Shown here: positions 1,848 through 43,602 of the stretch, in pieces
Layout of the letters: each line of letters opens with the position of its first letter
Position numbering within the stretch: position 1 is the first letter of the stretch
Assembly: GCA_026387475.1 (NCBI GenBank)
Contig: JAPLLN010000035.1
Coordinates: forward strand, 1 to 54,792
DNA length: 54,792 nucleotides
Origin: Candidatus Omnitrophota bacterium
GTDB lineage: Bacteria; Omnitrophota; Gorgyraeia; Gygaellales; Profunditerraquicolaceae
Reading direction: 5' to 3'
Program-made: the position numbers and the translations under genes
Notes under the pieces: model-generated
What the model was told of the DNA's origin: nothing
What the model saw: only the letters and a program-made list of their open reading frames with translations
Databases searched by the model: none

Positions 1848-4800
1848 TTATTTATTCTCTTCTTCCTGCTTCTTTTTCTTGGCTTCGCAGATCTCTTTGG
1901 CGATTTCTTGCGGAACCTGGACGTACTTGTCGAACTCCATGGTGGCGTTGGCGCGGCCGCTGGAGAGGGAGCGGAATCCGGTAGCGTAACCGAACATTTC
2001 GGAGAGGGGCGCTTCTGCGGAGACGATCTTCTGTTTTCCTTTTACGTCTATATTCAAAATCTTTCCCCGGCGGGAACAGATATAACTCACCACACCGTTG
2101 ACATGCTCTTCAGGAGTCGCTACTTCCAAAGACATGCTCGGCTCCAATAACACCGGTTGAGATTTAAGAAACGCCTCTTTGAACGCCATGCTCCCCGCAA
2201 TCTTAAACGCCATTTCCGACGAATCTACTTCATGGTAAGACCCATCGAGCAACTCCACCTTAACATCGACTACCGGAAATCCGGCATAAACTCCTTTTCC
2301 CATCGCCTCAATAATACCTTTTTCTACCGCCGGAATAAATGATTGTGGGATAGAACCACCTTTAATGCTATCGATAAACTCAAAACCCTTACCTGCCTCA
2401 TTAGGGCTCACCTCAATGACCACGTGGCCGTATTGGCCGCGGCCTCCGGTCTGGCGGATATATTTTCCTTCTGCCTCGGCTTTCTGTAATATGGTTTCCC
2501 GAAAAGCTACTTTGGGTTGGCCGACGATCGCCTCAACGCCGAATTCAGTTTTTAGTCTATCTACGATTATTTCCAGATGCAATTCGCCCATTCCGGTCAA
2601 TAAAGTTTCCTTGGTCTCCTCGTCGGAGCTGACAATAAAAGTCGGGTCTTCCTCGGTCAAGCGGCCTAAGGCTTTACCTAATTTATCCTGGTCGGACCGG
2701 GTCTTGGGCGTGATACTTAAAGAAACCACCGGTGTGGGGAATTGAATGGCTTCTAATAAAATCGGATTATCGGGGTCGCATAGCGTATCTCCGGTTACGG
2801 TGTGGTCTAATCCTACGCAAGCAACGATATCTCCGGCAAAGGCGTATTCCACGTTCTCGCGCATGTTAGCGTGCATCTGCACAATGCGGCCGATCCTCTC
2901 TTTTTTATCCTTGGTGGAATTTAATATGTAAGTTCCGGTAGATAAAACCCCGGAGTAGACGCGCAGATAGACCAGTTTCCCCATGTGCGGGTCTGCCTGA
3001 ATTTTAAAGGCTAGCCCGGAAAAAGGCTCTTTAAAGTCAGGCTTACGCTCTAATTCTTTATCCAGATCGTCGGGGACATGGCCCTTGACCGCAGGCACAT
3101 CCAGCGGGGAAGGCAAAAACATCGTCACCGCGTCCAGAAGTTTTTGCACCCCTTTATTTTTTAATGACGCGCCGCAGAGAACTGGGACAGCCTTATTGGC
3201 AACCGTACCTTTTCTTATGGCTTTAATTAATTCTTCTTTAGTAATGGTATCCGGGGCTTCCAAATATTTCTTAGTCAAAACTTCATCAAAGGCCGCTGCC
3301 CGCTCCAACATTATGCGGCGGTATTTCTGCGCGACTTCCGCTAAATCCGCGGGGATCTCTTCGATGCGATAATCCTTGCCTTGCGTTTCATCCTGATAAA
3401 TATACGCCTTCATCTCCAGCAGGTCCACTACCCCGGCAAAAGTATCTTCCTGGCCGCAGGGGACCTCTAACGGAATAGTATTTCCTCCCAACTGCTCTTC
3501 TATCCCCTTGAGTGTTCCGAAAAAATCCGCTCCGGTGCGGTCCATTTTATTGATGAACGCGATCTTAGGCACATTATATTTATCCGACTGGTGCCAGACG
3601 GTCTCTGATTGCGGCTCGACCCCGCCTACGGCGCAGAAGACCGCCACTGCTCCGTCTAAAACTCTTAAACTGCGTTCGACCTCGACGGTAAAATCCACAT
3701 GGCCGGGGGTATCGATCAGATTAATGCGGTGTTCTTTCCAGAAACAAGTCGTAGCTGCCGCGGTAATAGTAATTCCTCTCTCCTGCTCCTGCTTCATCCA
3801 GTCCATGGTTGCTTTACCGTCATGCACTTCGCCGATCTTATGCGACTTCCCGGTGTAAAAAAGAATGCGCTCGGACAAAGTAGTCTTTCCGGCGTCAATA
3901 TGCGCCATGATGCCAATGTTGCGCGTTCTTTCTAAGCTATATTTTGGTGTTGGCAGGGCTTCTGTTTCTTTGGGCTTTTCAACAACTGCGGATTCTTCGA
4001 CGGAAGCAGGTTCTTCAACGGGGACAGGTATCTCGACAGGGACAGGTTCGACAGGAACAGGTTCAACGGGAACGGGCTCTTCAACCGGAGCGGGCGCTAC
4101 AGGAGCGGATTCAACAGGAGCGGGTTCAACAGGAACCTCTACTACGGGTGCCGCATCCAAATCCGAAACCTTCGCCTCTGCTTGAGAAATGACCCTATTC
4201 TTTAAAACGACTAACTCCTCGATCAGGATGCGGGTCTTCTCCTCCTGCGCCTCCAGCGATTTTTCTAATTCCGTATATTCATCGTTGAGTTTGGTAAACT
4301 CGGCCTTAGGTACCCATTCGCTGTTCTGCTCTTTCTTCTTATACGCGTTGATCGTTTCTTTCAGGTCTTTTATTTCTTTTAAATCCCGCTCGATCTGATG
4401 CTTCTGCGATTCTATCTGATCAGCCTGCTCCTTGATCTTATTATCCAGCTCTTTGAGCCGCAGGTTTAGGTCCTGGATATCTTTGTTTAAGTTCACCCCT
4501 TTAGAGAAATGCTCCTCGGTCTCTTTCTCGCGCTCGGCAAACTTATTTCTTAATTCCAGGTTCTCGGCCTTGGCCTTATCTAACATCGCCTCTGACTTTG
4601 CCACCCACTCCTGCCGGCGGTTAAGCTCTTCCTGGAATTTCGCTTCTTTGGCTTTCGCCTCCTCAATATATTTCTTATCTTTATCGTATTGCGCCCGGAT
4701 CGTGAAAAGCTCACCCTCCAGAGAATCAACCTGGGCCTGAAGTTTCTGCTCTTTTAATTCCCGGCCTTCCTGATCAGGACGCGGTGGTTCCTCCGGCCGT

Positions 4801-4907
4801 TTCTTAGGCTTAACACTCCCCTGCCCGGGGGAAACAAAAATTCCCGCCAGGGCATAGACGATCAGCCCTATGCCGATAACCAGGATTACGATAAAGATAT
4901 TGCTCAT
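1848..4907 (-). CDS. fusA: elongation factor G paralog with a 321-aa N-terminal extension (membrane anchor, coiled coil, Pro-Val-Glu spacer)
   Basis: aa 322-1019 form a full EF-G ([27 protein letters not shown], domains II-V). aa 1-321 hold a hydrophobic helix, charged heptad-like sequence and a (PVE)n spacer. The ATG overlaps the upstream stop as TAATG. Confidence 0.85.
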
Positions 4908-5341
4908 TATTTACCTTGCAGCGCTTCTATTACCCTCTGGCTTACTTTGTTCTTCCTTAAATAATCGATGTCGTTTGTGGTAAGCACCAGCTTAGTGTTG
5001 GTAGACCTGATCTTATCAATGATAAAATCGTCGCTGGTCTTACGGGAAGTCATATCAACAACCTGCTGCATAGTCACCTGTTCGGTGGCAGCTACCTCTG
5101 TTTTTTGGCCGGGCTTATCGATCTGCGCGCCTACTAAAGCACCTGCGCCTGCGCCTACTGCTCCGCCGATTAACGCGCCGCCTAATCCGCTTCCTGACTG
5201 ATGGCCGATGATCCCGCCGGCTAAAGCGCCCACTGCGCCGCCGATCCCTGCGCCTTCAGCAACCCTGGTTTTATTTGTTTCACAACCTAATGCTACCACT
5301 ACCAGCCCTGCGCTTAAAACAACTGCCAGAACCTTTTTCAT
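4907..5341 (-). CDS. glycine-zipper lipoprotein
   Basis: Signal peptide with a lipobox-like VALGC. A Gly-rich GxxxG zipper follows ([17 protein letters not shown]...[18 protein letters not shown]). The start overlaps the rarA stop. Confidence 0.65.
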
Positions 5342-6648
5342 ACTTCCTCCTTTTTTAGTTTCTCCATCCTCTGTTTAATTTTTGCCTCGTATCCTATATC
5401 CGTAGGCTCGTAATATTTTACTTTTTTGCGCGTATATTTCTGTTTTACATAATGGCCGGGAAAATCATGCGCGTATTTATAATCTTTGCCGTGGCCGAGC
5501 CTTTCTCCGTCACCGGTGGCGTCTTTCAGGTGATCCGGGACCTCCTGCACTTTATTATTTTCAACGTCAGCATAGGCTTTGTCAATAGCTAAATAACTGG
5601 CGTTGGATTTTTGCGCGCATGAGACATAAACGCAGGCCTGGGCCAGAGGGATGCGCGCCTCGGGCATGCCCACAAATTCAGAGACCTGGAGCGCTGCGTT
5701 AGCCAGGACCAGCGCCAGGGGATCGGCATTCCCCACGTCCTCGGAGGCAAGTATGCAGATACGCCGGGCGATAAAGCGCGGGTCTTCGCCGGCATAAAGC
5801 ATCTTCGCCATCCAATATAAAGCCGCGTCCGGGTCAGAGCCGCGCATGGATTTGATAAAAGCGGACGCGGTATCATAGTGCCCGTCCTCATCGTGGTCAT
5901 AGACCACGGCCTTCTTTTGAATAGACTCCTCAGCAGCCTCTAAATTAAAATTGATCACCCCGTCTTTTGCCTGCGGAGTAGTCAACGCGCCTATTTCCAA
6001 AGCATTTAAAGCCCTGCGGGCATCCCCTTCCGAGGTTTTAGCCAGAAAATCCAGCGCTTCTTTCGCAGCCTTGATCTTGATCTTCCCTAATCCGCGCTCT
6101 TTATCTTTTAACGCGGCATTAAGAATTGCGGATATCTCGTTAGCTTTTAAAGATTTTAATTCGCAGACCAGCGAGCGCGATACAAGCGGCGAGGCAATTG
6201 AGAAAAATGGGTTATGCACGGTAGCGCCGATCAATACGGGATTGCCGTCCTCCACATCGGGAAGAAGGACGTCCTGCTGCGCCTTATTAAAACGGTGGAT
6301 CTCGTCGATAAAAAGGATGGTCTTCTGGCCGGAGGTTCTTTTTTTAAGTTTGGCCTGCGCGATGATGCGCCTTAATTCCTCGACATTGGAAGTAGTGGCA
6401 TTGACCGAGGCGAAAACTGATTTGGTGGCATTGGCGATGCAGTAGGCTAAAGAAGTCTTCCCGGTTCCCGGCGGGCCGAAAAGTATGAGTGAGCTTAAGC
6501 GGTCGGCAACGATTGCGCGGCGCAAAAGTTTTCCCTTACCTAATATATGCGCCTGCCCTACGAAATCGCCGAGTTCTGCCGGACGCATGCGCACAGAGAG
6601 GGGGAAGTCCTGGGAAGTCTTCTGGGTCTTTTCGGGGAATAAATCCAT
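5338..6648 (-). CDS. rarA: replication-associated recombination protein A (AAA+ ATPase)
   Basis: Walker A motif GPPGTGKTSLA and Walker B motif ILFIDEIHRFNK. The MgsA C-terminal signature is present (DGHYDTASAFIKSMRGSDPDAALYW). Confidence 0.9.
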   Translation of the reverse strand: MDLFPEKTQKTSQDFPLSVRMRPAELGDFVGQAHILGKGKLLRRAIVADRLSSLILFGPPGTGKTSLAYCIANATKSVFASVNATTSNVEELRRIIAQAKLKKRTSGQKTILFIDEIHRFNKAQQDVLLPDVEDGNPVLIGATVHNPFFSIASPLVSRSLVCELKSLKANEISAILNAALKDKERGLGKIKIKAAKEALDFLAKTSEGDARRALNALEIGALTTPQAKDGVINFNLEAAEESIQKKAVVYDHDEDGHYDTASAFIKSMRGSDPDAALYWMAKMLYAGEDPRFIARRICILASEDVGNADPLALVLANAALQVSEFVGMPEARIPLAQACVYVSCAQKSNASYLAIDKAYADVENNKVQEVPDHLKDATGDGERLGHGKDYKYAHDFPGHYVKQKYTRKKVKYYEPTDIGYEAKIKQRMEKLKKEEV

Positions 6649-31710: not shown

Positions 31711-34700
31711 ATGAAAAAACTCACTAAAGTAATCGCCATATTATTATCGGTTTCTCTTTTATTGCAGCAGGTCGGCTTTGCGCAAGTAGCCGGGACCCTG
31801 GACATCTCCGGCTTTATGACCCAGCTGCGCCAGTCCATTGCTGTCGATAAATTTCGTCCGCTCCATCTGCGCTATCTTGCCTACGACAACATTAATAATA
31901 ATTTTAAATTACTCCTGGATAAGGGTGACATCAAAAATTTAAAATCCGCTCAAATTGAAGAGACGAGTAAGAAGCTGCTTAATCTCTTCTTTGTCGGCGT
32001 AACTCTGCCTAATGATAGTTTCTGGGTGAACTTACGGCCGGACTCTCCGGATAAGATGCTCGACCCGATGGTCGCCCAGACTGATGTCGGTAAGGTGTTT
32101 TGCGAGGCTGACCTGCAACTTAAAAAAGATACTGCCAAATTTACTTCTCCGGACACCGCCGAGGGCAAGGAGTATTGGAATAAGCTTTATCAGAAAGCAG
32201 GGGAGATCTTCGGCTCGGAGAATATCACTATCCCGACCCTGACCCGGCCCTGGATCGTCCCGGATGAGATCATCATCCGCGAATCCACGGATAACGCGTA
32301 TATTTATAAAGCTACTTTGAAGGTAATGCTCGAGCAGGATTATTTAGCGGGCTCTGCCACTTATAATTTTAAAGACGAGCGCTTAAAGGCCCTGAACGAA
32401 TACTCTTCGCAGCTCATCCGTGAGCTGATTATCCCCAAACTCACCAAAGAAATCAATACCTCAAAAAGATATGCTTCCTTGCGCCAGGTCTATTATTCCC
32501 TGATTATGGCGCAATGGTTTAAGCAGAAGTTTTACGGCAAGGGTGGGCTTTATTCCTGGCTCATCGATAAGCAGAAGCTCAACGGCCTTACTTCTAAGGA
32601 AAATTGGAGCAAGGACTCGTATTTTAAAGAATACCAGAAGTCATTCCAACAAGGGGAGTACAATTTCAAGGTCCCGGTGTTTACGCCTTACGGCCAGACC
32701 ATCAGGAGCTATTTTTCGGGAGGTATTTCGGTAGGGACAGTGATGCAGCAGGCGACAATAGTGCCAGCGCCCAGCCCCTTGGCGGGGTCTAGTGGGGCCA
32801 TTGCCGAGTTATCTTTAAATCAGCATATCAGCAGCCCAGTAAACGTAGCTGGAGGTAGCGTAGATGACCTCGCGGATGTAAAACCGGAAGTAACTCAGGC
32901 GGCATCCGCTGCTTCAAGCTCGGCCATTCAGCCCCAATCCACCGCCGGTAATGCCGCGAGATTGGCCTTAGAAACGGCACACCAAGAGTCAATAAAACGG
33001 TTATTGCGCCAGCTTCCTACAAGACCAAAGCCTGACGACATAATAAGTCTCTCCATGGAAGATATAATTCATGGCTCAGATGCTACGCCAGCGCAAATAC
33101 AGCAGATATTGGATTCCCAAACCATGAAAGTCGAATTGGGAAACATACTTCCGTATGCGGAAATAATAGTCAAACAGTTGACTAGATTGTTAGCCTCTGG
33201 GCGTTATTCAAAGATACTTATTTGCGGCCGCGACGCAGATATTTTTGACGACGCATTGCAGGTTGTTTTATCGGGAACCGGGCTTGAAGGCCGGGTTGTG
33301 CGCCTGCCCTCTAGCGAGAAAATGCGTTATTATGTACGGGATGCAATGCCGGCGGATGATAAAATAAAGTTTTTGAGCCACCTCGGGATTACGAGCAACC
33401 TAAATAACGAAAATATATTAGTTTTTGATACCGGTTTCGAAGGCAGCGTATACTTATGGCTTTCCGACTTAATTTCAAAAACATTTCCGGGAATGGATGT
33501 TCCGAAGCATCTCTCATGCGGAATGATCCGCTCCCAATTGGGCGAAAGCCTCCAGATTATCAAATTACCTCCGCCTTCTGCCGCAGATATTGCAGGTGGT
33601 TTTCCGTATAATAAGTTCCCGAAGAGTGCCTTTCTTGCGCGAAGCGCAGATATGAACACTCTTGTTGCCTGCGCGGTAGATGCCTTGCCGCAGTATTCCG
33701 GAGGTTTCACAAAGGCGTTGGTTACAGATACCGGGGCAGTTAAGTTTATCGCTGATAATGCCGTTGTTTCATTCGACCCGGACAGGCTAGAGCGTTCTTT
33801 CCATAGTTCTGCGCAGTATAATAATTCCGGCATAGTAAATCCCGCCGCAGCAATGATGGTTCAAAAGAGAGTAGTGGATTATTTTATATCGCATCGTGAT
33901 CAGCTGCTTAGCGGTATAGGTTCATTAAATCAGCATATTAGTAGGCCTGTAGAAGTAACAGGGGGGAGTGCGGCAAGTCCTGCAGAGATAACGGTAGCTG
34001 TGCAGGCAGCCCAACCCGTTGCCCAGCCCAACACCGTAAACTCAATGACTCCGTCCGAAGCCGGAACTACCATGGCCCATATCCAAAAATTTGCGGATTT
34101 CATATTGGGCCTGTTTAAGGATCGGGATCTTAAACAGCCAATCGATTATGCCGATATCGGAAGCGGTGCTGACGCGGAATTCGAAGAGAACATGGTGCCA
34201 TTGTTGACTGCCTTAGGATTTAAGATTAGGGAAAGAGTAAGCGTAGATGGTGGTTATTTTGGTCCATTGACAAGCAAAGTTAAAAAAGCGGACATTACTG
34301 ACAAACAACAAAGAGAAAGCATTGGTCTAGGTGATGAATCCAGGGACCTTGTAACTATAAATAATATTCAGTCTTTCAGACTTGTGCAGCCGGCAATGGC
34401 TACATTGAAGCCAGGAGGCGTGTTATTGGTGACGTTTGCTAAGAGCGACCTGGAGGATAGGCATGACGATCCCAGGATTATTGAACAAGTAATCGCGGAA
34501 GCAAAGGAATTATTAGGATATGAAGTGCGTGAAATACAAAAACCAGACGACTATCCTGTTTCAAACAGCAAAATCAAGCATAATCCTAACTATCCGTCTT
34601 ACGGCAAGATGCTCATTATCACCAGAAAAAAGAGTCCTGGCGGAGAAATTGTTTTTTCTGCCGCCGTAAACCCCACGCCCGCCGCCTCAAGCCCGGTATT

Positions 34701-37700
34701 CGCTAATGTTGATTTACCCGCGTTGCGGGAGACGCTTGCCGCGATTAGAAAATCAACTGAAATGGCGAGTCAGGGGTATGCCACCGGCTTAAATGATTAT
34801 ATACTTAGTACACAGTTGCTTGCGGATTTAGGTATCGCGCGCGGCGACGTCTTATATCCGTGTATGGGAGTGGATTTGGCGCTTGCCCGCCACACTAAGG
34901 TGTTCGGTTTGAATACAACCACCGGTTTAACCAGCAGGTCAGAGCTTGAGCCTGTAATTGCTTTATTCCAGCGTAACGGTTGGAGTGCCGCTGACACAAA
35001 GACAGCAGAGAACAACATTCATCTGATTACCGGCGACTATCGCGACAGCTCCCAATACGCCGGGCTACGGGCGCAGGGAGGGGTGGATGTAATAATGGCC
35101 AAGGGGTTGGGCTGGACAGTAAGCGAGAGCGAGATAAGGAAATTCTTTAAGGACATAGGCAGCGAACTTTTGAAGTCCGGAGGATATGTGGTCATTGTAG
35201 GCGCAAAGGATGAGTGGTTACGCGATTATCTGATGCGCGAGTTTGGCTACAAAGATATTTTTGAGCAATTCTTGCCGCAAGAAGCGCAGCAACTTCCCCT
35301 TGATGAGTATAAGCAGGTGAAAGATGCGTTATCCGCTCAAAACGGCGGGCCTGAAAAGGTGCTAAGCGTAAGAGATGCGCAATTTGTCGTTGGCAGGCTT
35401 CCTATGGCGGTATTGCAGAAACCCGTCGCCTCAAGCCCGGCACCGGACCCCGAATTCCAGGCGGCTGCCGAAACCGCATATAAGCAAGTTGCCGAGGAAA
35501 AGCAAGAACCGGCAAACCAGATTTATTATTCGCAATTATGTGAGCCATTCAGCAAGGCGCTAAATAAAATATTAGGAGACAAGGGCTACCAGTCATGGGT
35601 AGTGACGGTTGGACAATGGGGAGGCATTTCTACCCATGATTTCGTCATCATTAAGGACAAAAATGGCCGCTTCTGGCTTATCGATGGCACCTGGCAGCAA
35701 TTCCTAAAACAAGATCAGCTGCCACTCGACCATCAAAAAGCAGTCATGATCCTTGAAATAACCCAGCAAAATGGCGAGGTTCAAGAGAAGGACATGGAAG
35801 AGAAGTTTGCTAATTTTGGAGTGCCTAGTTTTATGAGCCGCAGGTTGGCATCCGCAATTAAAAATAAAATTAAAGAAGCAGTGACCCAGAATGCTGAACC
35901 GCCTACTGTCATCTCCAGTCCGGCGCCTAGCGCCTCCAGCCCGGCCCGCGCTTCTTCTCCGGCGACTAGCCATTGGTGGAAGACGATTACCTATACTGTA
36001 TTGATGGCTATGCCGACACTGGCAGTCCTGTATTTATTGTTAAGAGATGTCCCAGGCGAAGAGGCGGCTACTATCGCGCCTCCTGCCCAGCCGGCTGCGC
36101 AAGCACAGCAAGAATACCCAAGACATATAAGATTTTTAATAGAGGCAGCTAAAAATCAAGATCAGATGGCATCTATTAAGTTGGGCGAGCTGGCGAATAA
36201 GCAAGACAGGCTTGCTTTTTCTGCGCTTATTGACTTAGTGAAAGCTGGTAATGAAGATGCTTTTGGCGTGCTTAGCAGTTTATCTGAATCGCAAAACAAG
36301 GAGATAAAGGATCTGGTTTGGTCAGAGCTCGCCAGACTGGTGCTGCAAGACGGGTTAGACAGGCCTATCGACTTCTTTGATTATAATACTAATGATCCCC
36401 GGCGCGGATGGGAGACGATGGTTGCCTTTGCCAAGGCGGGGAATAAAACAGCAATAAGCCGCGTATTAGCTTATGCTAATGACCGCCGTGATCCGGAAAA
36501 AGGCCGGGAGGCGCGCGCTCTGGTTTCGAAGTTAATAGAACAGGGAGATAGAGAAGTGATCGCCTCTGTTTTTGAAGAAGATGTACGAAACATGCGTACG
36601 CGCTATCTTGCCGGGCATGATTTGAAAGCGCTGCAGGCAGAACTAACTGAAAAGAGCCGTGATAACGCACTTTATCTGGCTTTTGCATTTACCGCGCGCG
36701 AAAGTTCCGGCGCCTTAGCCGATGAAATCTTGGTTAGATTAGAAAAGATAGCAGGTAGCAAAGGCAATATGCTGGGCTTTATTGATTCGATGAATGACCG
36801 CCAGCTTCTTAAAAATTTTATTTTATCCGCGGCAAATTATAACCACCTCAATACCCTAGTCGCATCGGATGAAGCGCTTAAAAATGCGGTAGATATGCTT
36901 TTTAAGGGATTAAACGCGCAAGAAGCAGAGATGTATTCCGTGCGCTTAGCTTTATTTGTTGAAGATATTTTACGTCAGAACAGCAGGACTGATGCTTTTA
37001 AGAAGTGTCTGTTTACCTTATATGACGATAACGGGGTGTCAGGCTTGAATAAAGATTTGATTGCCGCCTTGCTTACGGTTTACGCTGATAAATTCTCCGC
37101 TATTGACCAGCAGAAGATTACGCGCATCGCAGCAGAACGCGGTATCCAATACAATAAAGCCAGGGTCAATACCGCTAAACTGCTCAAGAACGGCAAGCTT
37201 ATTATACATACGGTCTTTATGGATCAGGATGCGCAAAACTTTATCTCTGGAACATCCGAATTTTATAAAAGCCAGGGTTATAAATCAGAGCGCAGGGATG
37301 GGCATATTGCCTTGACTAAAGGCAATGTGGTAATATGGCTGATTAATAATGTGGGTAACGCATATGACATTCGGGAGCACATAGGGAAAGTCTCGGCATT
37401 CATTTTACGCGGGCATGCTGGAAGTGAGGAGCGTCTATTCAAGGGGCAATCCCAGGAGTATTTTATGGCTTTTATTAATGCTTGCCGCAGCGCAACATTC
37501 TTAGGGAAGCTAAAGGCGCAATATCCAAATGTCGATGCTATAGGCGTGCGTGGAACAGGGGAAGGTGAACCGGGAACCCGTGTTAGCTACTACTTAGAAC
37601 GCGCGCTCAACAGCGGTATAAGGGATTGGAGCCAGATCCGGGATTATTTGAAGAACCATATCAAGGGTTATGCCGGGAACCTGGCAATGCCGGGTGACCG

Positions 37701-40700
37701 CGCGCTAGACGTGCTTGGTATTGTTTCCCGGAAAGCCGCGCAGGCTAATAATACCGCCTCCAGCCCCGCTCCGGCTCCGGGAATAGATAAGACTGCCTTA
37801 ACGGAGATCTTTACCAGAAATCATTATCTGTCGTACCTTGTTTTGAATATGTCGCTTGTTCCTTGGAGTATCTCCGCTGATTCGACCACTAAACTGCAGC
37901 AGCTGCGCGACGAGATGAATACGGAATATCTTAATTTCCTTGCTATGCCTGCAGGCTCTACGGATGAGATTCGGCTGGCTTATCTGCAGCTTGCCCTGCT
38001 GATAAGGAAGAATCTGCCCACCGCGAAGTCACTGGTTGATAGCATTCCCGAGGGAGCTATTAAGAAAAACATGAAAGAAGGTATTATCGATGCGGAGCGT
38101 TTCGCTAACGGTATTGAAATGCTCATGGATGATTCTAATAATCAGGTAAATATTAATAATACTCTGGATGCAATGTCAAATATCGTATTTTCTAAGCATT
38201 ATCGTGATAGAGGGGGTAAGTATAATATAACTATGCAGGCCGCTTCAGATATGCCGAAGCTAAATGCGAATCAGGGCGATATAGCGTATTTATTCCTCAA
38301 CCTATTTCTCCCGTTTGTCTTGCCTTTGGGGGTATTTAACGGAAAAGAAGTAGAGTTAAAGGTATCCACAAAATCCGAATCGGGTAATTTAGTAATTACG
38401 GCAGAGTCTAACCAAGCTCCATCCACGGAAGATATAATGGTCTATGGCCATCCGATAAACGCGGGTTTCAGGGTAGCGCAGAGAATTGCTAAAAAATATG
38501 GCGGGACTATAGAAGCGCAGTCTCAAGGCACGAAACTTATAGTAAGGCTTCCGATTGCGCAGCAGGCCGCTTCTTCGCCTGCGCCATGGGAGCCGCGTTT
38601 GGATAAAGAAAAGGCAATAGAGGATTGCCGGAGTATCAGCTTGGCTCTTCGCGAGATTTATGCAGATCCGCAATGGTCAAGCCAGCTTAGGAGCGAAATG
38701 CGGTATGTTCTTACTCAATCCGGCGCATTGACTGCTTTGCTTGGGCTTAGAGCCATTGCTGAACTAGGCCAGTCTTTTGATATTGTCTATCAGGTAAGCC
38801 TTACGCCGCAATTGCATACAGAGCTTGAAAATTTGTTACGCAAAAATGGCAATAGCCAGATAAGAATAAAAACTATAAAGCAATCAGGCGCCGGCCGGAA
38901 CTATACGCAGTTTATTATAATCAACTTGGAGAAAGCTAGACAGGTGCTTCTCCATCCTGTATTCACCGTACGCGAAAGAGAGCGCGCCACCACCGACGAT
39001 GGATTGTGCGATTTTATATTAGCTCTAAATAATGACATAAGCTATAACCGCAGGGATATGAAATTAGGGTTGTTGTTCGGTGTGCCGGAGGTTGAGGCAG
39101 TTGCTTACGAGAAGCAGGGCTCTGGGATACACGGCAGAAACATTGAAATCAGTAATCCGTTTGAAGAGTTTGGTGCTTCCGGTAACGTTTGGAAGGCGCT
39201 TACCCATGATCCGGCAAACAAACGGTACGAGGCCATATACGAAGAGGCTTATGGAATAGCCAGAGAAGCGATCCCCAGTCACCAGTATCTTATTGATAAG
39301 CCAGAGGGTAGTTTGTCCGGAGGTATCTCGGCCTCCAGCCCGGCGCCCGGCGCCAGTTCGCCTAACAAGGCAGAAGGCCTGTTAGAACTAGATAGGAGAC
39401 CTATAGATGGGGGTTTACTCAATACAGTTTATGTAGGCCATGATATGGAGGTATGCAGGGCCGTTAATCCAGACCATCAGGGTGGCCAGATAGCGGTCAA
39501 TGTTGCATCCGGCGCCGGTATTTCTAATTACCTTTTGAGTTTAGATGCAACAACGGGGTATTTCGTTGATACGGTCAAAGTTAATGCTGGCGATTTAACA
39601 GAATCTCTGGCTCGTTGGGCTGGATTATCCGGTATTGTTAATGACCCGGAGTTCTTCGGTGGTTATGCGCAGCGCAAGTTTCGGGCTGGTTACGAACAGG
39701 CGTTCGCCGCTTTCGGAGATGGATCGGACGGCATCATGAGTGCCTTGCAAGCAGAAAAAATACTCTATGAATTGCAAGTGATGGGCGTGGATAAAGAATC
39801 TATAGCGGTTGAAAAGATTGATGACAAAACCGTTAAGCTGACCTTCAAGTGGGCTTATCCGGGTCGTCCGCTTAGAACTTACGAGATTTATTTTGTTCAT
39901 CAAGATATAGCCTCCCCGGAGAGCTTCCCGCAAATCCTTAGAGATCTAAAAGGCAAGGCAACTTTCATTTATGAGCGCGCCGGCTTATCTCTGCCTGCGC
40001 GATACCATCTATTTATTAATGAATTAATTTCTTATCTCAAGCCTAATGGTTATCTGATGACTGATGATGTTAGTTACGATAAGGCCGCATCAGAACCCTA
40101 TGTCGACCAAGGGAAGTATTTCGATAATATTAATAATCTCGTTACGGTTAAAACTCCCGCAATGGGTGAATGGGAGCAAAAAATTGCTACTTATAGAGAA
40201 GATAAGTTTGAGAAGACTTCTTATGGGGCAATAGTGCGGATTCGGCAAGTGACACAGGGGAGTGCTACCAAGCCCGGAGCCTCCAGCCCGGCGCCCGCCG
40301 CCAGCTCGCCGGTTAAAACCGGGGCAGAAAGCGCAAATAATGATGGCCGGCCGTTTATCTTAGACAAGGGGACCGGATTGTTTGTTCCGGACCGCACAGT
40401 CGTCTCTGTCACTGCGCCCAAAGATAAAAAAGCTATTGCTGAAGCTACAAGTAGAGTAGAGTCAGCTATCGGTAAGATAAAGAAGATAAGAAGCGTCACC
40501 GATGCCCAGGCCCTGGATAAGAAGGGAGAGCTTGCGGCGTCAGTCGAAGATCTTAACTATATCGCGTTGCTCGGGCTTAACGGAGAACTTACGCAGTCGC
40601 TCGCAGAACCTTTGTGTATTATATTGAACTATTCGTCTTCAGCTGAACTCCACCGCAAAGTGCACCTTCTTCTGACTCACCTGCCGGGGTCATTTATTTT

Positions 40701-43602
40701 TACTCCAACTCAATCAAACGCGCTGATTAGTTCCATAGACCGCTTCGGTTCATCCGATGAAAAATTGACACAGCGCGTTATTGAGTCCGTGACCTTAGAC
40801 TTAAACATTTTATCCGAAGAGAACTTCGCTTCCTATCTTAGGATTATCAGCCGCCTGCCCCGTTACCATGCCGAAGGCCTGACTAACCTGCCCAGCGAAA
40901 TGACCTTTGGTGTTGAAATCGAAGTGAATCTGTTGGATGCGAAAGAAGCCACGGATTTATTAGCCACCACAAAGCTTCTTCGTAAGCTAATAGATTTTGC
41001 CAGCAGAGAAGGCTTAGCAGCCCGTGGCTGGGTAGTTAAGCGGGACATGAATAATATTGAAATTACCACTAAAGATAAAGGCCTTCCCAATACGCGGGAG
41101 GGCTGGGCTGAACTGCGGGATGGTTTAACCAAGCTGTGGGGTTTTATTATGGCTAACTCTCCGGAGCGCTCGCTCTATTACGGTATGCATGTCCATATCG
41201 GCAGCCCTCTGCCCAGTTTGCAGAGAGGGAAGCTTATGCGCGCAGTCTCCTATATAGGAAAAAGCATGGAACACTGCTGGAGCCTGTTAGGAAAAGTTCA
41301 AAACAAGCTGGTTTTCAGCGAAGATGCGCTTTGGGGAGACCAGATAACAAGTAAAGGCAAGACGCCTTTTTATGACGATGCGACAAAAAATACGGTTGCC
41401 ATAAACACTTTTGCTCCTGCGCCCATTAATCTGCTCTCCGGTAACGGGGATAAGTATTTTGCACGGTTACAACTTACTATAGGCGCTGCATTAGCTATTG
41501 TGCATAATGCCTCCGCAAGGCCAGGGGAATTCACTTTCCTACGTACCGGGCTTCCTTTGCTCCAAAGTTCCCTTTATACCAAAGAAAATTCTTTTCTTCT
41601 GCGCCGGCATATTAATCATCTCTTCGGGGGAGATTCTGCGGGGACCATTGCCATGCTGCAGCTTCTCTATGATATGAAGCGGCTCCCGCAGCTTCCGGTT
41701 GGCGGGGTTGATGTAGTCAACGAACAACGGATAAAGAAGGCTTATGAAGCCGCCGGATTCGGAGAATTGTATGCTTTGCATAAACAGAGCAACGGTTGGA
41801 GCTCTATGGCAGTGCAATTAATTGATAAATCCATACAGCAATGGCGCGGCAAGATACTTTCTCCTAACACAGATATAACGCAACAGGGGAAAGGCGTTGA
41901 AGTGTTGGGTGATGCAGCTTCGAACGGCAGCCACTCCGCGGCTATGGCTTTAAAAGAAATCATCCTTACCACGGAAAACACCAATCTACAGAGCATGGCG
42001 ATGCATGCTTTAAAGTCCGCACTTTTTAAAGACAGCCAGCCTGCGGCTACGGCCTTAAAAGAAATCATTCTTACCGCGGAAAACACTAATGTGCAAGGAG
42101 ATGCGCTGGAAGCCTTAGCTTCCGGTTGTTTCGCAGACAAAGAGTTCGCTGTCAGGTCCGTCGAAGAACTGATTATAAGAGTAAAGGAAATCATCCTTAC
42201 TAAAAACGATACCAGGTTGCAAAATTTTGCCATAGATGCCCTACAAGGCGCTGCTAATCGGAATAGCCAGCCTGCGGCTACGGCCTTAAAAGAGATCGTC
42301 TTTGCTACGGAAGATATCGGCCTGCAAGACAAAGCGATCGCCGCTTTAGAAGATGCTTCCATTTGGAATAGCCTGCCCGCGGTTACGGCATTGAAGGAAA
42401 TCAGCCTTACCAAAAACAATACCAGATTACAAACTGGTGCCATAGCCGCCTTAATAAGCACTGCCTCCTTGAGTAGCTACGCGGCTACGGCTTTAAAAGA
42501 AATCATCCCTGTAGTTCCGGACTCAAAGGAAATCATCCTTACCACGCAAGGTTTTAATCCACGAAATGTATTAGTTGCTTCTTCGCCCGCCGCCTCAGAC
42601 GCCGCGCCATCCCCTCAACCCGCTATAGATATACCAAGAGAAACGTCTTATATTGCTGAGCAGATGGGTGCAAAAAGAGGAGACAGGGTATTGATTATGG
42701 GTTACCGGTTCCTTCATTTACCTACAGCGCTAGGGATGCATGGCGTTAACACTACATTGGTAGACCTCAATCCTGACGTAATAAATATGGAAAGACTATT
42801 CGCCGCACCTTTGAGATCTAAGGATGGTCAGGTAGCCCCAGCCTTTATCAATAAGTACGCCGAGGACATCAATACGCAAGACGCGCCTTTGGATAGTTTT
42901 GATATAGTATCGCTTCTTGATTTATTTATAGATACGCAAGGTGACCCGCAAGCAACTATTAAAATGGCTCTTCAAAGAGTAAAGGACGGGGGGGTTGTAT
43001 ATTTACCGGAATATATCAGTTGGAGGGAAGGCCAATTTGGTTTGTCTGCGGTAAAGAAAGGAACAGAAGGCTTGGCTTTGAATCGTCTATGTGCAGAATT
43101 AGGGTATTCCTATGAACAAATTCCCGGCAAGTTTATACCTGGAGACCAGACGAATTTAGCTTACAGAATAACTAAACATAAGGCCCAGCCAACTGTTTCT
43201 TCTCCAGCGGAAAACGCTAAGGGTGGTATTGACCTGAGCGCGCTGCCTATTGTGGTCCAGCCTATGCCGAACAACCGGATCCCTGCGCCGATGGTGCCTA
43301 ATTTATCTGCGGCAACCGATAAGGATCTGCTGGAGATCCAGAATATGCTCGTTTCGGGGATTACTCCTTCCGGAGAGAGGTTAAAGGATTATATGGCAAA
43401 ATGCTCTGATCAGCAGGATATGAATAAGATATTAAGCTGTCTTGCCGATATCTTCAGGATGGAAGAGGATCAGGCTGTCGCGACTGACCCGGCTTTGAGG
43501 CAGTTTTTGGTATTGTTGGAATCAGGGAAGAATTCGCAGGAATTAAAACAGGAGTTAAACAAGATCAGCTTTGCTCCGCAGGAGCCGGAGCTAGTGGAGT
43601 AA
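31711..43602 (+). CDS. giant (3,963 aa) secreted or membrane-anchored multidomain protein made of enzyme-like modules joined by ASSPAP linkers
   Basis: One uninterrupted 11,892-nt frame with a Sec-like signal peptide (MKKLTKVIAILLSVSLLLQQVGFA). One internal TM helix at aa ~1424-1445. Motif-level hits to Rossmann MTase-like (x4), transglutaminase-like, HEAT-like, degenerate HATPase_c and amidoligase-like modules. Confidence 0.85.
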   Translation: MKKLTKVIAILLSVSLLLQQVGFAQVAGTLDISGFMTQLRQSIAVDKFRPLHLRYLAYDNINNNFKLLLDKGDIKNLKSAQIEETSKKLLNLFFVGVTLPNDSFWVNLRPDSPDKMLDPMVAQTDVGKVFCEADLQLKKDTAKFTSPDTAEGKEYWNKLYQKAGEIFGSENITIPTLTRPWIVPDEIIIRESTDNAYIYKATLKVMLEQDYLAGSATYNFKDERLKALNEYSSQLIRELIIPKLTKEINTSKRYASLRQVYYSLIMAQWFKQKFYGKGGLYSWLIDKQKLNGLTSKENWSKDSYFKEYQKSFQQGEYNFKVPVFTPYGQTIRSYFSGGISVGTVMQQATIVPAPSPLAGSSGAIAELSLNQHISSPVNVAGGSVDDLADVKPEVTQAASAASSSAIQPQSTAGNAARLALETAHQESIKRLLRQLPTRPKPDDIISLSMEDIIHGSDATPAQIQQILDSQTMKVELGNILPYAEIIVKQLTRLLASGRYSKILICGRDADIFDDALQVVLSGTGLEGRVVRLPSSEKMRYYVRDAMPADDKIKFLSHLGITSNLNNENILVFDTGFEGSVYLWLSDLISKTFPGMDVPKHLSCGMIRSQLGESLQIIKLPPPSAADIAGGFPYNKFPKSAFLARSADMNTLVACAVDALPQYSGGFTKALVTDTGAVKFIADNAVVSFDPDRLERSFHSSAQYNNSGIVNPAAAMMVQKRVVDYFISHRDQLLSGIGSLNQHISRPVEVTGGSAASPAEITVAVQAAQPVAQPNTVNSMTPSEAGTTMAHIQKFADFILGLFKDRDLKQPIDYADIGSGADAEFEENMVPLLTALGFKIRERVSVDGGYFGPLTSKVKKADITDKQQRESIGLGDESRDLVTINNIQSFRLVQPAMATLKPGGVLLVTFAKSDLEDRHDDPRIIEQVIAEAKELLGYEVREIQKPDDYPVSNSKIKHNPNYPSYGKMLIITRKKSPGGEIVFSAAVNPTPAASSPVFANVDLPALRETLAAIRKSTEMASQGYATGLNDYILSTQLLADLGIARGDVLYPCMGVDLALARHTKVFGLNTTTGLTSRSELEPVIALFQRNGWSAADTKTAENNIHLITGDYRDSSQYAGLRAQGGVDVIMAKGLGWTVSESEIRKFFKDIGSELLKSGGYVVIVGAKDEWLRDYLMREFGYKDIFEQFLPQEAQQLPLDEYKQVKDALSAQNGGPEKVLSVRDAQFVVGRLPMAVLQKPVASSPAPDPEFQAAAETAYKQVAEEKQEPANQIYYSQLCEPFSKALNKILGDKGYQSWVVTVGQWGGISTHDFVIIKDKNGRFWLIDGTWQQFLKQDQLPLDHQKAVMILEITQQNGEVQEKDMEEKFANFGVPSFMSRRLASAIKNKIKEAVTQNAEPPTVISSPAPSASSPARASSPATSHWWKTITYTVLMAMPTLAVLYLLLRDVPGEEAATIAPPAQPAAQAQQEYPRHIRFLIEAAKNQDQMASIKLGELANKQDRLAFSALIDLVKAGNEDAFGVLSSLSESQNKEIKDLVWSELARLVLQDGLDRPIDFFDYNTNDPRRGWETMVAFAKAGNKTAISRVLAYANDRRDPEKGREARALVSKLIEQGDREVIASVFEEDVRNMRTRYLAGHDLKALQAELTEKSRDNALYLAFAFTARESSGALADEILVRLEKIAGSKGNMLGFIDSMNDRQLLKNFILSAANYNHLNTLVASDEALKNAVDMLFKGLNAQEAEMYSVRLALFVEDILRQNSRTDAFKKCLFTLYDDNGVSGLNKDLIAALLTVYADKFSAIDQQKITRIAAERGIQYNKARVNTAKLLKNGKLIIHTVFMDQDAQNFISGTSEFYKSQGYKSERRDGHIALTKGNVVIWLINNVGNAYDIREHIGKVSAFILRGHAGSEERLFKGQSQEYFMAFINACRSATFLGKLKAQYPNVDAIGVRGTGEGEPGTRVSYYLERALNSGIRDWSQIRDYLKNHIKGYAGNLAMPGDRALDVLGIVSRKAAQANNTASSPAPAPGIDKTALTEIFTRNHYLSYLVLNMSLVPWSISADSTTKLQQLRDEMNTEYLNFLAMPAGSTDEIRLAYLQLALLIRKNLPTAKSLVDSIPEGAIKKNMKEGIIDAERFANGIEMLMDDSNNQVNINNTLDAMSNIVFSKHYRDRGGKYNITMQAASDMPKLNANQGDIAYLFLNLFLPFVLPLGVFNGKEVELKVSTKSESGNLVITAESNQAPSTEDIMVYGHPINAGFRVAQRIAKKYGGTIEAQSQGTKLIVRLPIAQQAASSPAPWEPRLDKEKAIEDCRSISLALREIYADPQWSSQLRSEMRYVLTQSGALTALLGLRAIAELGQSFDIVYQVSLTPQLHTELENLLRKNGNSQIRIKTIKQSGAGRNYTQFIIINLEKARQVLLHPVFTVRERERATTDDGLCDFILALNNDISYNRRDMKLGLLFGVPEVEAVAYEKQGSGIHGRNIEISNPFEEFGASGNVWKALTHDPANKRYEAIYEEAYGIAREAIPSHQYLIDKPEGSLSGGISASSPAPGASSPNKAEGLLELDRRPIDGGLLNTVYVGHDMEVCRAVNPDHQGGQIAVNVASGAGISNYLLSLDATTGYFVDTVKVNAGDLTESLARWAGLSGIVNDPEFFGGYAQRKFRAGYEQAFAAFGDGSDGIMSALQAEKILYELQVMGVDKESIAVEKIDDKTVKLTFKWAYPGRPLRTYEIYFVHQDIASPESFPQILRDLKGKATFIYERAGLSLPARYHLFINELISYLKPNGYLMTDDVSYDKAASEPYVDQGKYFDNINNLVTVKTPAMGEWEQKIATYREDKFEKTSYGAIVRIRQVTQGSATKPGASSPAPAASSPVKTGAESANNDGRPFILDKGTGLFVPDRTVVSVTAPKDKKAIAEATSRVESAIGKIKKIRSVTDAQALDKKGELAASVEDLNYIALLGLNGELTQSLAEPLCIILNYSSSAELHRKVHLLLTHLPGSFIFTPTQSNALISSIDRFGSSDEKLTQRVIESVTLDLNILSEENFASYLRIISRLPRYHAEGLTNLPSEMTFGVEIEVNLLDAKEATDLLATTKLLRKLIDFASREGLAARGWVVKRDMNNIEITTKDKGLPNTREGWAELRDGLTKLWGFIMANSPERSLYYGMHVHIGSPLPSLQRGKLMRAVSYIGKSMEHCWSLLGKVQNKLVFSEDALWGDQITSKGKTPFYDDATKNTVAINTFAPAPINLLSGNGDKYFARLQLTIGAALAIVHNASARPGEFTFLRTGLPLLQSSLYTKENSFLLRRHINHLFGGDSAGTIAMLQLLYDMKRLPQLPVGGVDVVNEQRIKKAYEAAGFGELYALHKQSNGWSSMAVQLIDKSIQQWRGKILSPNTDITQQGKGVEVLGDAASNGSHSAAMALKEIILTTENTNLQSMAMHALKSALFKDSQPAATALKEIILTAENTNVQGDALEALASGCFADKEFAVRSVEELIIRVKEIILTKNDTRLQNFAIDALQGAANRNSQPAATALKEIVFATEDIGLQDKAIAALEDASIWNSLPAVTALKEISLTKNNTRLQTGAIAALISTASLSSYAATALKEIIPVVPDSKEIILTTQGFNPRNVLVASSPAASDAAPSPQPAIDIPRETSYIAEQMGAKRGDRVLIMGYRFLHLPTALGMHGVNTTLVDLNPDVINMERLFAAPLRSKDGQVAPAFINKYAEDINTQDAPLDSFDIVSLLDLFIDTQGDPQATIKMALQRVKDGGVVYLPEYISWREGQFGLSAVKKGTEGLALNRLCAELGYSYEQIPGKFIPGDQTNLAYRITKHKAQPTVSSPAENAKGGIDLSALPIVVQPMPNNRIPAPMVPNLSAATDKDLLEIQNMLVSGITPSGERLKDYMAKCSDQQDMNKILSCLADIFRMEEDQAVATDPALRQFLVLLESGKNSQELKQELNKISFAPQEPELVE
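41938..42560 (+). repeat. tandem ~105-nt (35-aa) HEAT-like repeat array inside the giant ORF
   Basis: Units start at 41938, 42043, ~42148 (degenerate), 42274, 42379 and 42481, with a partial unit at 42526. Each encodes AATALKEIILT..NT.LQ..A..AL. Confidence 0.85.

What the first reader, a model, noticed from the sequence alone, without database searches (positions are those of the whole stretch)
1848..4907. EF-G fused to an N-terminal membrane anchor, a long coiled coil and a Pro-Val-Glu spacer
aa 322-1019 are a complete EF-G with intact GTPase motifs. The first 321 aa have four parts:
- A hydrophobic helix (aa 4-25, [22 protein letters not shown], nt 4833-4898).
- A basic, Pro-rich stretch.
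- About 200 aa of highly charged heptad-like sequence (aa ~45-245).
- A (P-V-E)n spacer (aa 252-305, nt 3993-4154), which is also a short tandem repeat in the DNA.
There is no in-frame stop anywhere in the extension. The 37 codons upstream of the P-loop strand contain no ATG, GTG or TTG. The first such codon is the Met inside [12 protein letters not shown], and starting there would delete strand beta-1. The ATG at 4905-4907 overlaps the stop of the upstream lipoprotein gene as TAATG, which is typical translational coupling (rarA, then lipoprotein, then this gene). The gene is not in a str-operon context (no rpsL, rpsG or tuf nearby), so it is probably an EF-G paralog. I do not know of a described translocase-type GTPase tethered to the membrane through a ~35-nm-class spacer. 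It could localise ribosome rescue, recycling or translocation activity to the membrane.
Basis: partly seen in the sequence, partly recalled or inferred. Interest (0 to 1): 0.65.

Follow-up and report, generated by a model that had tools for sequence, protein, structure and literature searches.

The report
Membrane-anchored elongation factor G fusion
This Omnitrophota bacterium encodes a complete, normal-looking translation factor EF-G fused in one protein to a membrane anchor, a long coiled-coil stalk and a floppy acidic linker; at least 83 related loci keep this design, public annotation cuts it off, and I found no paper describing it.

Summary
Window 1848-4907 (-) is one uninterrupted 1019-aa ORF with these parts:
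- a single N-terminal hydrophobic helix
- a basic juxtamembrane stretch
- about 200 aa of true heptad coiled coil, broken once at a conserved SEWVP motif
- a 76-aa acidic Pro/Val/Glu linker predicted to be disordered
- a five-domain EF-G that scores far above the canonical EF-G cut-off (TIGR00484, 1042 bits against 659)

Contigs from three independent metagenome studies cross the junction without indels.

Eighty-three loci, nearly all labelled Omnitrophota, keep the same continuous frame. They have no conserved internal start codon.

The public record of this very contig starts the gene at a rare CTG (Leu318), which hides the extension.

The gene is most likely an accessory paralogue. A large free EF-G clade of about 698 aa exists in the phylum, and two genomes carry free and fused genes on one contig. 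In the window's own metagenomes, a second EF-G contig tracks this organism's depth.

The stalk also occurs as stand-alone proteins of about 225 aa and has no Pfam or PDB relative.

The function is inferred: an active, probably dimeric EF-G held within about 30-45 nm of the membrane.

The parts
1848..4907 (-). Whole gene: 1019-aa fusion of membrane anchor, coiled coil, linker and EF-G (P0001)
   Evidence: frame confirmed by contigs from three studies
4833..4904 (-). aa 2-25, single transmembrane helix (signal-anchor, predicted N-out/C-in)
   Evidence: KD19 of 2.89 and the only hydrophobic segment. AF2 helix 2-23. In 82 of 83 orthologues K/R are more frequent after the helix than before it, mean 4.6 against 0.1.
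4767..4832 (-). aa 26-47, basic and Pro-rich juxtamembrane segment ([12 protein letters not shown]), predicted disordered
4323..4766 (-). aa 48-195, coiled-coil segment 1 (148-residue helix, about 22 nm), including the conserved [10 protein letters not shown] and EKE..FSK.VNL blocks
   Evidence: AF2; heptad period; conservation across 83 loci
4308..4322 (-). aa 196-200, SEWVP: helix break with invariant W198 and near-invariant P200
4173..4307 (-). aa 201-245, coiled-coil segment 2 (45-residue helix, about 7 nm), K.EF.KLNEEYTELEK.LE block
3945..4172 (-). aa 246-321, acidic Pro/Val/Glu linker, predicted disordered; imperfect 15- and 18-nt tandem repeats at 4007-4134
   Evidence: Among orthologues the linker is 49-174 aa and net acidic in 82 of 83.
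3954..3956 (-). CTG (Leu318) that a public source uses as the start of a 702-aa 'EF-G' (P0043); no Shine-Dalgarno sequence before it
1848..3944 (-). aa 322-1019, complete EFG-I type EF-G (G, II, III, IV, V) plus a Lys/Glu tail and the stop codon
   Evidence: Pfam; TIGR00484 1042 bits; T. thermophilus EF-G 1dar 889 bits and E. coli EF-G 871 bits
4907..5341 (-). Upstream 144-aa Gly-zipper lipoprotein gene; its TAA overlaps the ATG of the fusion (TAATG)
   Evidence: a homologue lies in the same position in 9 other loci
5338..6648 (-). rarA (MgsA-type AAA+), first gene of the likely rarA-lipoprotein-EF-G unit; promoter-like site at 6800-6773
   Evidence: rarA is the immediate upstream gene in 34 of 83 loci

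Best explanation
The gene makes one bitopic inner-membrane protein.

Architecture:
- An uncleaved N-terminal helix anchors it with the N-terminus outside. Everything after the helix lies in the cytoplasm.
- About 200 residues of heptad coiled coil follow. They most likely pair in parallel with a second copy and form a stalk of about 29 nm with one conserved kink (SEWVP).
- A 76-residue acidic Pro/Val/Glu linker then carries a complete, catalytically intact EF-G of the canonical (EFG-I) type.

Place in the phylum:
- It belongs to a family conserved across Omnitrophota.
- It is most likely an extra EF-G beside one or more free EF-G copies, not the only one.

How it probably works:
- The head probably binds ribosomes and hydrolyses GTP like ordinary EF-G.
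- It can do so only within roughly 30-45 nm of the membrane. In cells 0.2-0.3 um across that shell is about two thirds or more of the cytoplasm.
- The tether therefore keeps a fixed pool of translocase or recycling activity at the cell cortex. It does not strictly confine it to translocon-bound ribosomes.

What is shown and what is inferred:
- Shown: the single ORF, its conservation, the predicted anchor, stalk and linker, the intact EF-G, and free paralogues in the phylum.
- Inferred: topology, dimerisation, activity and purpose.
For: Single ORF:
- The ORF is continuous and the frame is verified.
- 83 loci have the same continuous frame despite linkers of 49-174 aa, and none has a conserved internal start.
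- The start is tightly coupled to the upstream gene in 53 of 83 loci.

Anchor, stalk and linker:
- There is one hydrophobic helix, and the positive-inside rule is met in 82 of 83.
- AF2 gives helices 48-195 and 201-245 and a disordered linker.
- The 3.5-residue hydrophobic period lies 6 sd above shuffles.
- The stalk carries conserved motifs: W198 and L207 invariant; W101, F134 and K136 at 90% or more.

EF-G head:
- It scores 1042 bits on TIGR00484, and the EF-G2 and Tet models fall below their cut-offs.
- It scores 889 bits to T. thermophilus EF-G against 399 to EF-G-2.
- The fused cores are as conserved as the free clade: mean top-residue frequency 0.83 against 0.84, with only 10 clade-diagnostic sites.
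- L9-EF-G chimeras in the PDB (4wpo and others) show that EF-G carrying an N-terminal fusion has been solved.

Paralogy:
- A free clade of 120 clusters is called at 689-704 aa, all but two at 692-704 aa, by callers from five sources.
- The tree splits into a free clade (support 0.993) and a fused clade.
- Both genes lie on one contig in CP070797.1 and in CAZVRU010000003.1.
- In seven runs a second EF-G contig has 0.69-1.04 times the depth of the window's fused gene.
- A preprint reports S12-S7-EF-G-EF-Tu operons in complete Omnitrophota genomes (10.64898/2026.06.07.730766).

Cell size:
- Omnitrophota cells are about 0.2-0.3 um across (PMC10066038).
Against: - There is no protein or RNA evidence. 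The three metatranscriptomes from the same lake held nothing of the extension.
- Topology, oligomeric state and GTPase activity are predictions only.
The depth-tracking contig could belong to a co-varying organism.
- The two genomes shown to hold both genes carry fused genes that lie outside the window's main fused clade.
- In cells this small the tether restricts little, so a spatial role is not obviously needed.
- Stalk-only homologues exist, so the stalk may be the primary functional unit.
Confidence: 0.6

Rival explanations
1. Sole or principal translocase. In the window's lineage the tethered protein is the main EFG-I type factor. Bulk elongation would then be served from the membrane, which is feasible because the stalk and linker reach most of a 0.2-um cell.
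For: - The core is canonical and evolves as slowly as the free clade.
- No free EF-G lies in the window or within 10 kb of the fused gene in 81 of 83 loci.
- The split between fused and free clades could partly follow organismal lineages rather than paralogy.
- The two co-occurrence cases fall outside the window's main fused clade.
Against: - A second EF-G contig tracks this organism's depth in seven runs.
- Free EF-G genes are widespread in the phylum.
- str-operon EF-G is reported in complete Omnitrophota genomes.
- Free copies score slightly closer to canonical EF-G (TIGR00484 1090-1095 against 1042-1056).
Confidence: 0.12
2. Storage and release. The anchor sequesters EF-G at the membrane, and a free factor is produced by internal initiation or by proteolytic cleavage in the linker, for example under stress.
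For: - The linker is long, disordered and variable, so it would be accessible to proteases.
- This window has a TTG at L250 with a weak AAGG 8 nt upstream.
- A few orthologues have an in-frame ATG or GTG with a Shine-Dalgarno-like sequence near the junction, for example L008 and L011.
Against: - 50 of 83 loci lack any ATG, GTG or TTG in the last 25 codons and 30 of 83 lack one in the last 60. The positions that do occur are incidental Val/Leu/Met codons, mostly without a Shine-Dalgarno sequence.
- No promoter-like site lies in 3945-4907.
- A free paralogue makes a released copy redundant.
Confidence: 0.1
3. The stalk is the functional unit. A pre-existing membrane-anchored coiled-coil scaffold captured EF-G and uses it as a ribosome-binding hook, for example to hold or partition ribosomes at the cortex. 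Catalytic turnover would not be the point.
For: - About 60 stand-alone proteins of 209-235 aa match the whole anchor and stalk and keep both Trp motifs, with E-values of 1e-17 to 1e-28.
- Two fused loci also carry weaker stalk-like ORFs downstream.
- The stalk has specific conserved blocks beyond a generic coiled coil.
Against: - All GTPase motifs and the domain IV tip loops are kept.
- The head is under the same constraint as free EF-G, which is not expected for a mere hook.
Confidence: 0.1
4. Artefact. A frameshift, mis-assembly or chance open frame joins an unrelated upstream gene or spacer to fusA.
For: - Public annotation calls only a 702-aa EF-G.
- One orthologue (L069) is split by a frame change inside the G domain.
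Against: - Contigs from three studies show no indel.
- 83 loci keep the frame, and the extension is conserved at protein level.
- The annotated start is a CTG without a Shine-Dalgarno sequence.
- Fifteen NCBI short forms share their contig length with a record held here, and the ORF read on that record is continuous and about 1000 aa long.
Confidence: 0.01

Closest known systems
Canonical bacterial EF-G (FusA, EFG-I; NCBIfam TIGR00484; T. thermophilus 1dar, E. coli 2rdo/4v7b)
   Same: - Five-domain architecture, all G motifs, catalytic His in DTPGH, domain IV tip loops.
- 1042 bits on the equivalog model and 889 bits to 1dar.
   Different: - Carries a 321-aa N-terminal anchor, coiled coil and linker.
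- Does not lie in rpsL-rpsG-fusA-tuf.
- Belongs to a clade separate from the phylum's free EF-G of about 698 aa.
Second EF-G paralogues (P. aeruginosa EF-G1A/1B, T. thermophilus EF-G-2 1wdt, Bacteroides EF-G2)
   Same: An additional EF-G gene outside the str operon, beside another EF-G in the phylum.
   Different: - Those paralogues are soluble. None has a membrane anchor, from my own knowledge and from the literature searches.
- This core scores below the cut-offs of the EF-G2 models: 511 against 890 and 477 against 1000.
Kinectin / p180 at the eukaryotic ER (kinectin holds eEF1-delta; from my own knowledge)
   Same: A membrane anchor plus a long coiled coil places a translation elongation factor at a membrane.
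   Different: - That association is non-covalent and eukaryotic, and it involves a different factor.
- No sequence relation: the stalk has no Pfam or PDB match.
RNase Y (N-terminal TM helix and coiled coil before the catalytic domains)
   Same: The same layout, with a bitopic anchor and coiled coil tethering a cytoplasmic RNA-machinery enzyme. An rny gene lies a few kb downstream in related loci.
   Different: Unrelated catalytic domains, and the stalk here is several times longer.
Engineered L9-EF-G chimeras (PDB 4wpo, 4wqf and others)
   Same: EF-G carries a foreign protein on its N-terminus and has still been solved as a structure. Those entries are ribosome complexes, from my own knowledge.
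   Different: These are artificial constructs made for crystallography, with no membrane anchor.

Membership tests
EF-G (FusA, EFG-I; TIGR00484) | Score above the curated equivalog cut-off over the full model length | tested here: met
   1042.1 bits against a cut-off of 659.4; aa 323-1012 match model positions 5-691
EF-G (FusA, EFG-I; TIGR00484) | Five domains (G with G', II, III, IV, V) | tested here: met
   Pfam GTP_EFTU, EF-G_D2, EFG_III, EFG_IV and EFG_C all above their cut-offs; AF2 gives the EF-G fold
EF-G (FusA, EFG-I; TIGR00484) | Intact GTPase motifs G1-G5 and domain IV tip loops | tested here: met
   [36 protein letters not shown] and SYHEVDSS read in P0001; all are invariant or nearly so in 45 orthologues
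EF-G (FusA, EFG-I; TIGR00484) | Soluble cytoplasmic protein of about 700 aa with no membrane segment | tested here: not met
   1019 aa with an N-terminal TM helix and a 321-aa extension
EF-G (FusA, EFG-I; TIGR00484) | Gene in the rpsL-rpsG-fusA-tuf (str) operon (typical, not obligatory) | tested here: not met
   Flanked by rarA and a lipoprotein gene upstream and a TPR gene downstream; no S12 or EF-Tu motif in the window
EF-G (FusA, EFG-I; TIGR00484) | Ribosome-dependent GTPase and translocation or recycling activity | not testable with these tools
   Needs biochemistry
EF-G2 / EF-G-like paralogues (NF009377, NF058620) | Score above the curated cut-off | tested here: not met
   511 against 890 and 477 against 1000
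Tet(M)/Tet(O) ribosomal protection proteins (NF012153) | Score above the curated cut-off | tested here: not met
   381 against 775
Omnitrophota membrane-anchored EF-G family (defined here and in earlier notes of this scan) | TM helix, coiled coil with the two Trp motifs (..EWV.K.., SEWVPK.EF.KL), acidic linker and EF-G in one frame | tested here: met
   P0001 aligns end to end with 44 homologues, 36-60% identical in the extension. It falls inside the fused clade of 215 sequences.
Bitopic N-out/C-in membrane protein | One hydrophobic helix of about 20 residues with positive charges on the cytoplasmic side | tested here: met
   KD19 of 2.89; 0 K/R before and 4 within 20 aa after the helix; the same holds in 82 of 83 orthologues. 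Insertion itself was not tested.
Two-stranded coiled coil | Heptad (3.5-residue) hydrophobic periodicity over a long helix | tested here: met
   Sharp peak at 3.5 in both the sequence and the alignment profile; z about 6 against shuffles. Spacing is irregular in aa 95-138. The oligomeric state was not tested.

The most novel reading that the evidence does not exclude
Omnitrophota spatially organise translation. The covalently membrane-tethered, probably dimeric EF-G would be a working translocase or recycling factor that services ribosomes in the cortical shell. One example would be sustaining the very long co-translational export of the phylum's giant secreted proteins; a 3963-aa ORF lies in this same window. 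Its conserved Trp motifs would dock the stalk to a membrane or ribosome landmark. In the strongest form of this reading, it is the principal EF-G of this lineage.
Probability: 0.1. Interest if true: 0.85.

Novelty: new variant of a known kind. Interest (0 to 1): 0.6.

Why it matters
From my own knowledge, EF-G is regarded as a freely diffusing cytoplasmic factor. An EF-G that is built into the membrane by its own sequence and conserved across many species of a phylum would be the first natural case of a covalently anchored translocase. It gives a concrete way to ask whether ultra-small bacteria organise elongation in space.

There is also a practical point. Homology-guided start calling in public records removes the extension. 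Here it picks a CTG start, and elsewhere Leu or internal Met codons. Protein databases therefore under-report the architecture. The stalk is an undescribed module that also exists on its own.

Tried and rejected
I could not search the window's own assembly for other EF-G genes, and this remains the main gap.

Searches for a free EF-G that led nowhere:
- The EF-G-core search listed only the fused clade and its trimmed forms.
- The seed for the free clade came by chance from a second EF-G inside locus L083.
- Matching contig lengths between the fused and free hit lists gave only CP070797.1.
- Of three blind look-ups of free-clade proteins, one (P0254) hit a contig that carries both genes.

Reads and RNA:
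- Metatranscriptome runs from the same lake matched only conserved 30-mers from other organisms, so there is no expression evidence.
- The sequence of the depth-tracking second EF-G contig cannot be retrieved with these tools.

Explanations rejected:
- Internal initiation as a general mechanism.
- A single alpha-helix (ER/K) domain in place of a coiled coil, because a clear a/d hydrophobic seam exists.
- A cleavable signal peptide or lipoprotein signal, because there is no basic n-region and no lipobox Cys.

No match found:
- Pfam, NCBIfam and PDB searches for the stalk found nothing above noise.
- The promoter scan is not above chance for the region (9 sites against 5.1 +/- 2.4).
Full report
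**1. What is in the sequence**

Window 1848..4907 on the minus strand is one open reading frame of 1019 codons. Pfam finds the full EF-G domain set in aa 327-1005. NCBIfam's equivalog model for EF-G (TIGR00484) scores 1042 bits against a cut-off of 659. The EF-G2, Tet-protection, RF3, BipA and LepA models all fall below their cut-offs. The best solved relatives are T. thermophilus EF-G (1dar, 889 bits) and E. coli EF-G (871 bits). T. thermophilus EF-G-2 scores only 399 bits. All GTPase motifs and the two domain IV tip loops are present.

- The only hydrophobic stretch in the protein is aa 1-29.
- No charged residue precedes it, and KPKKRP follows it.
- AlphaFold2, run with 45 homologues, gives a helix at 2-23, disorder at 24-47, one 148-residue helix at 48-195, a break at 196-200 (SEWVP), a 45-residue helix at 201-245, disorder at 246-324, and then the EF-G fold.
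- Hydrophobic residues in 48-245 recur with a sharp 3.5-residue period, both in this sequence and in the profile of 83 orthologues. Enrichment at a/d positions is 0.49 against 0.26 +/- 0.036 in shuffles.
- This is therefore a true coiled coil and not a charged single helix. The middle part (aa 95-138) has irregular spacing.
- The linker is 25% Pro, 25% Val and 20% Glu. Its DNA holds imperfect 15- and 18-nt tandem repeats.

**2. Is it one protein?**

Four lines of evidence say yes.
- Frame. Logan contigs of metagenome runs from three different studies cover the ORF and cross the junction with no insertion or deletion.
- No internal start. No ATG, GTG or TTG lies between the TTG of L250 and M334. 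The CTG at Leu318 has no Shine-Dalgarno sequence.
- Conservation of the frame.
  - A scan of species-representative genomes found 518 relatives, fused and free not separated. The best 80 are nearly all labelled Omnitrophota, with some labelled Planctomycetales, Deltaproteobacteria or just 'bacterium'.
  - With four further loci and the window, 83 loci show a continuous frame from a hydrophobic N-terminus into EF-G.
  - Extensions run 286-438 aa and linkers 49-174 aa.
  - Fifty of the 83 have no canonical start codon in the 25 codons before RNIGI, and 30 have none in 60. Where such codons occur they are ordinary Val/Leu/Met positions, mostly without a Shine-Dalgarno sequence.
- Coupling at the start. 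The ORF begins within 30 nt of, or overlaps, the stop of the upstream co-directional gene in 53 of 83 loci. Here the overlap is TAATG with a Gly-zipper lipoprotein gene, which follows rarA.

The neighbourhood thrS-infC-rpmI-rplT-pheS-pheT-rarA-(lipoprotein)-fused EF-G is shared with distant relatives.

**3. Hidden by annotation**

A public source holds this very contig's product as a 702-aa protein that starts '[13 protein letters not shown]', that is, at the CTG of Leu318.
- In locus L002 the NCBI gene starts at 'MEKTRNIGIM' and leaves a 975-nt 'gap'. That gap is in fact the extension of a 1022-aa ORF.
- All 22 such short NCBI forms fall inside the fused clade in a tree.
- Fifteen of them share their contig length with a record held here, and the ORF I read on that record is continuous and about 1000 aa long.

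**4. Paralogue or only copy?**

The evidence is therefore indirect.
- Locus L083 comes from a complete 1.52-Mb chromosome (CP070797.1). It carries a 698-aa free EF-G 1.6 kb upstream of a 1051-aa fused one, and the two are 72% identical.
- Using that free protein as a query gave at least 120 clusters of 689-704 aa, all but two of 692-704 aa. The hits come from all five sources (ncbi, jgi, ena, lgn, nr), so they are truly short.
- Their genes lie in contexts such as fur-feoB-osmC-fusA or S21-fusA, not in a str operon.
- A second genome (CAZVRU010000003.1) has a free gene followed 329 nt later by a 1080-aa fused gene.
- In a maximum-likelihood tree the free clade (120 sequences, support 0.993) and the main fused clade (215 sequences) separate.
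- The two fused genes that sit beside free ones lie outside the main fused clade. Co-occurrence is thus proven only for that subgroup.
- Both clades are equally constrained: pairwise identity is 76% and 78%, against 68% between clades, and only 10 sites are clade-diagnostic.
- The free clade is slightly closer to canonical EF-G.

For the window's own organism I laid contigs of eight metagenome runs on the free EF-G gene of L083.
- One contig family that is not the fused gene has depths of 22.1, 9.6, 8.3, 18.9, 10.1, 9.0 and 4.8.
- In the same runs the window's fused gene has about 21, 14, 8, 23, 11, 11 and 7. The ratio is 0.69-1.04.
- It was the only EF-G contig whose depth matched in every run where it was detected. 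It was not seen in X8.
- This suggests a second EF-G in the same population but does not prove it.

A 2026 preprint also reports S12-S7-EF-G-EF-Tu operons in complete Omnitrophota genomes. I put about 0.8 on this genome holding at least one free EF-G.

**5. The stalk is a module of its own**

The extension is conserved well beyond a generic coiled coil.
- W198 and L207 are invariant. W101, F134, K136, P200, K201 and F204 are nearly so.
- A profile of the anchor and stalk, searched against 1.84 billion representative proteins, found 470 hits.
- Besides fragments of fused genes, about 60 are complete-looking proteins of 209-235 aa. They align from the TM helix to just past the second Trp motif and then end.
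- Neither Pfam nor the PDB holds a relative of the stalk.
- The fusion therefore looks like the capture of EF-G by, or onto, a pre-existing membrane-anchored coiled-coil protein.

**6. How it most likely works**

Predicted, not tested:
- The positive-inside rule puts the N-terminus outside and the rest in the cytoplasm. It is met in 82 of 83 orthologues.
- A heptad coiled coil needs a partner strand. With both anchors at the same end, a parallel homodimer with two EF-G heads is the simplest reading.

Geometry:
- At 0.15 nm per residue the helices span about 22 + 7 nm.
- The 24-residue juxtamembrane segment and the 76-residue linker add perhaps 5-15 nm.
- In cells of 0.2-0.3 um (PMC10066038), a shell 45 nm thick is about 66-83% of the volume by my arithmetic.
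- The tether therefore keeps EF-G at the cortex but does not confine it to translocon-bound ribosomes.

The intact and strongly constrained head argues for real catalytic use.

What the arrangement is for is open. Candidates are a fixed cortical pool of translocase or recycling activity, help for long co-translational export, ribosome positioning, or partitioning of a scarce factor.

**7. Comparison with what is known, and novelty**

The head is a member of canonical EF-G by every sequence test. It departs from that family in being anchored and in its gene location. The closest functional analogies are kinectin/p180 at the ER (non-covalent, eukaryotic) and RNase Y (the same anchor-coiled-coil-enzyme layout). 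Engineered L9-EF-G chimeras in the PDB show that EF-G carrying an N-terminal fusion has been solved. Six full-text searches and look-ups in two Omnitrophota papers found no description of an anchored EF-G.

Earlier notes of this scan report the same family in more than 15 other genomes. I used them as leads and re-tested what I could. The finding is thus new to the literature I could search, though not new within this scan.

**Verdict**

The feature is real, conserved and hidden by annotation. It is a new architectural variant of a known factor. Its function is inferred.

Noticed in passing
window 3954-3956 (-); also L002 9023-12091: Public gene calls trim the 1019-aa ORF to about 700 aa by starting at a CTG (here) or at Leu or internal Met codons (relatives). 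This leaves a false 'intergenic gap' of about 950 nt.
   Followed up: yes
L083 6310-8406 and 10001-13156; L088 3001-5094 and 5423 onward: Two genomes (CP070797.1 and CAZVRU010000003.1) carry a free 697/698-aa EF-G and a fused EF-G of 1051 and 1080 aa side by side. Their fused genes fall outside the main fused clade, which hints at a second fusion event or at gene conversion.
   Followed up: partly
P0333, P0336, P0345, P0357, P0361, P0378, P0390, P0405: A family of proteins of about 225 aa consists of the TM helix plus a coiled coil with both Trp motifs but no linker or EF-G, so it is 'stalk only'. Their taxonomy and gene context are unknown.
   Followed up: partly
L069 7886-9127 and 9164-11014: In one orthologue the fused gene is split by a frame change between G1 and G3. 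This is either a pseudogene or a MAG sequencing error.
   Followed up: no
L062 14008-14892; L047 6437-6958: Weaker stalk-like TM plus coiled-coil ORFs lie 1-1.5 kb downstream of the fused gene in two loci (E 5e-16 and 5e-13). They lack the Trp motifs.
   Followed up: no
window 31711-43602 (+): A 3963-aa ORF lies in the same window. Giant proteins are a reported trait of Omnitrophota.
   Followed up: no
window 4907-5341 (-): A 144-aa Gly-zipper (YMGG-like) lipoprotein gene is wedged between rarA and the fused EF-G and overlaps its start. A homologue holds the same position in 9 other loci, whereas in 34 loci rarA abuts the fused gene directly.
   Followed up: partly
L085 8001-10097, L086 8001-10097, L089 3001-5097: The free EF-G clade of Omnitrophota also lies outside a str operon, in contexts such as fur-feoB-osmC-fusA-otsA or rpsU-fusA. 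If a str-operon fusA exists as well, as a preprint states, some genomes may have three EF-G genes.
   Followed up: partly
L001 2208-3659: On a 1.19-Mb ENA contig thrS and infC are called in pieces, with a faint LAGLIDADG hit nearby. This is probably long-read frameshift noise.
   Followed up: no
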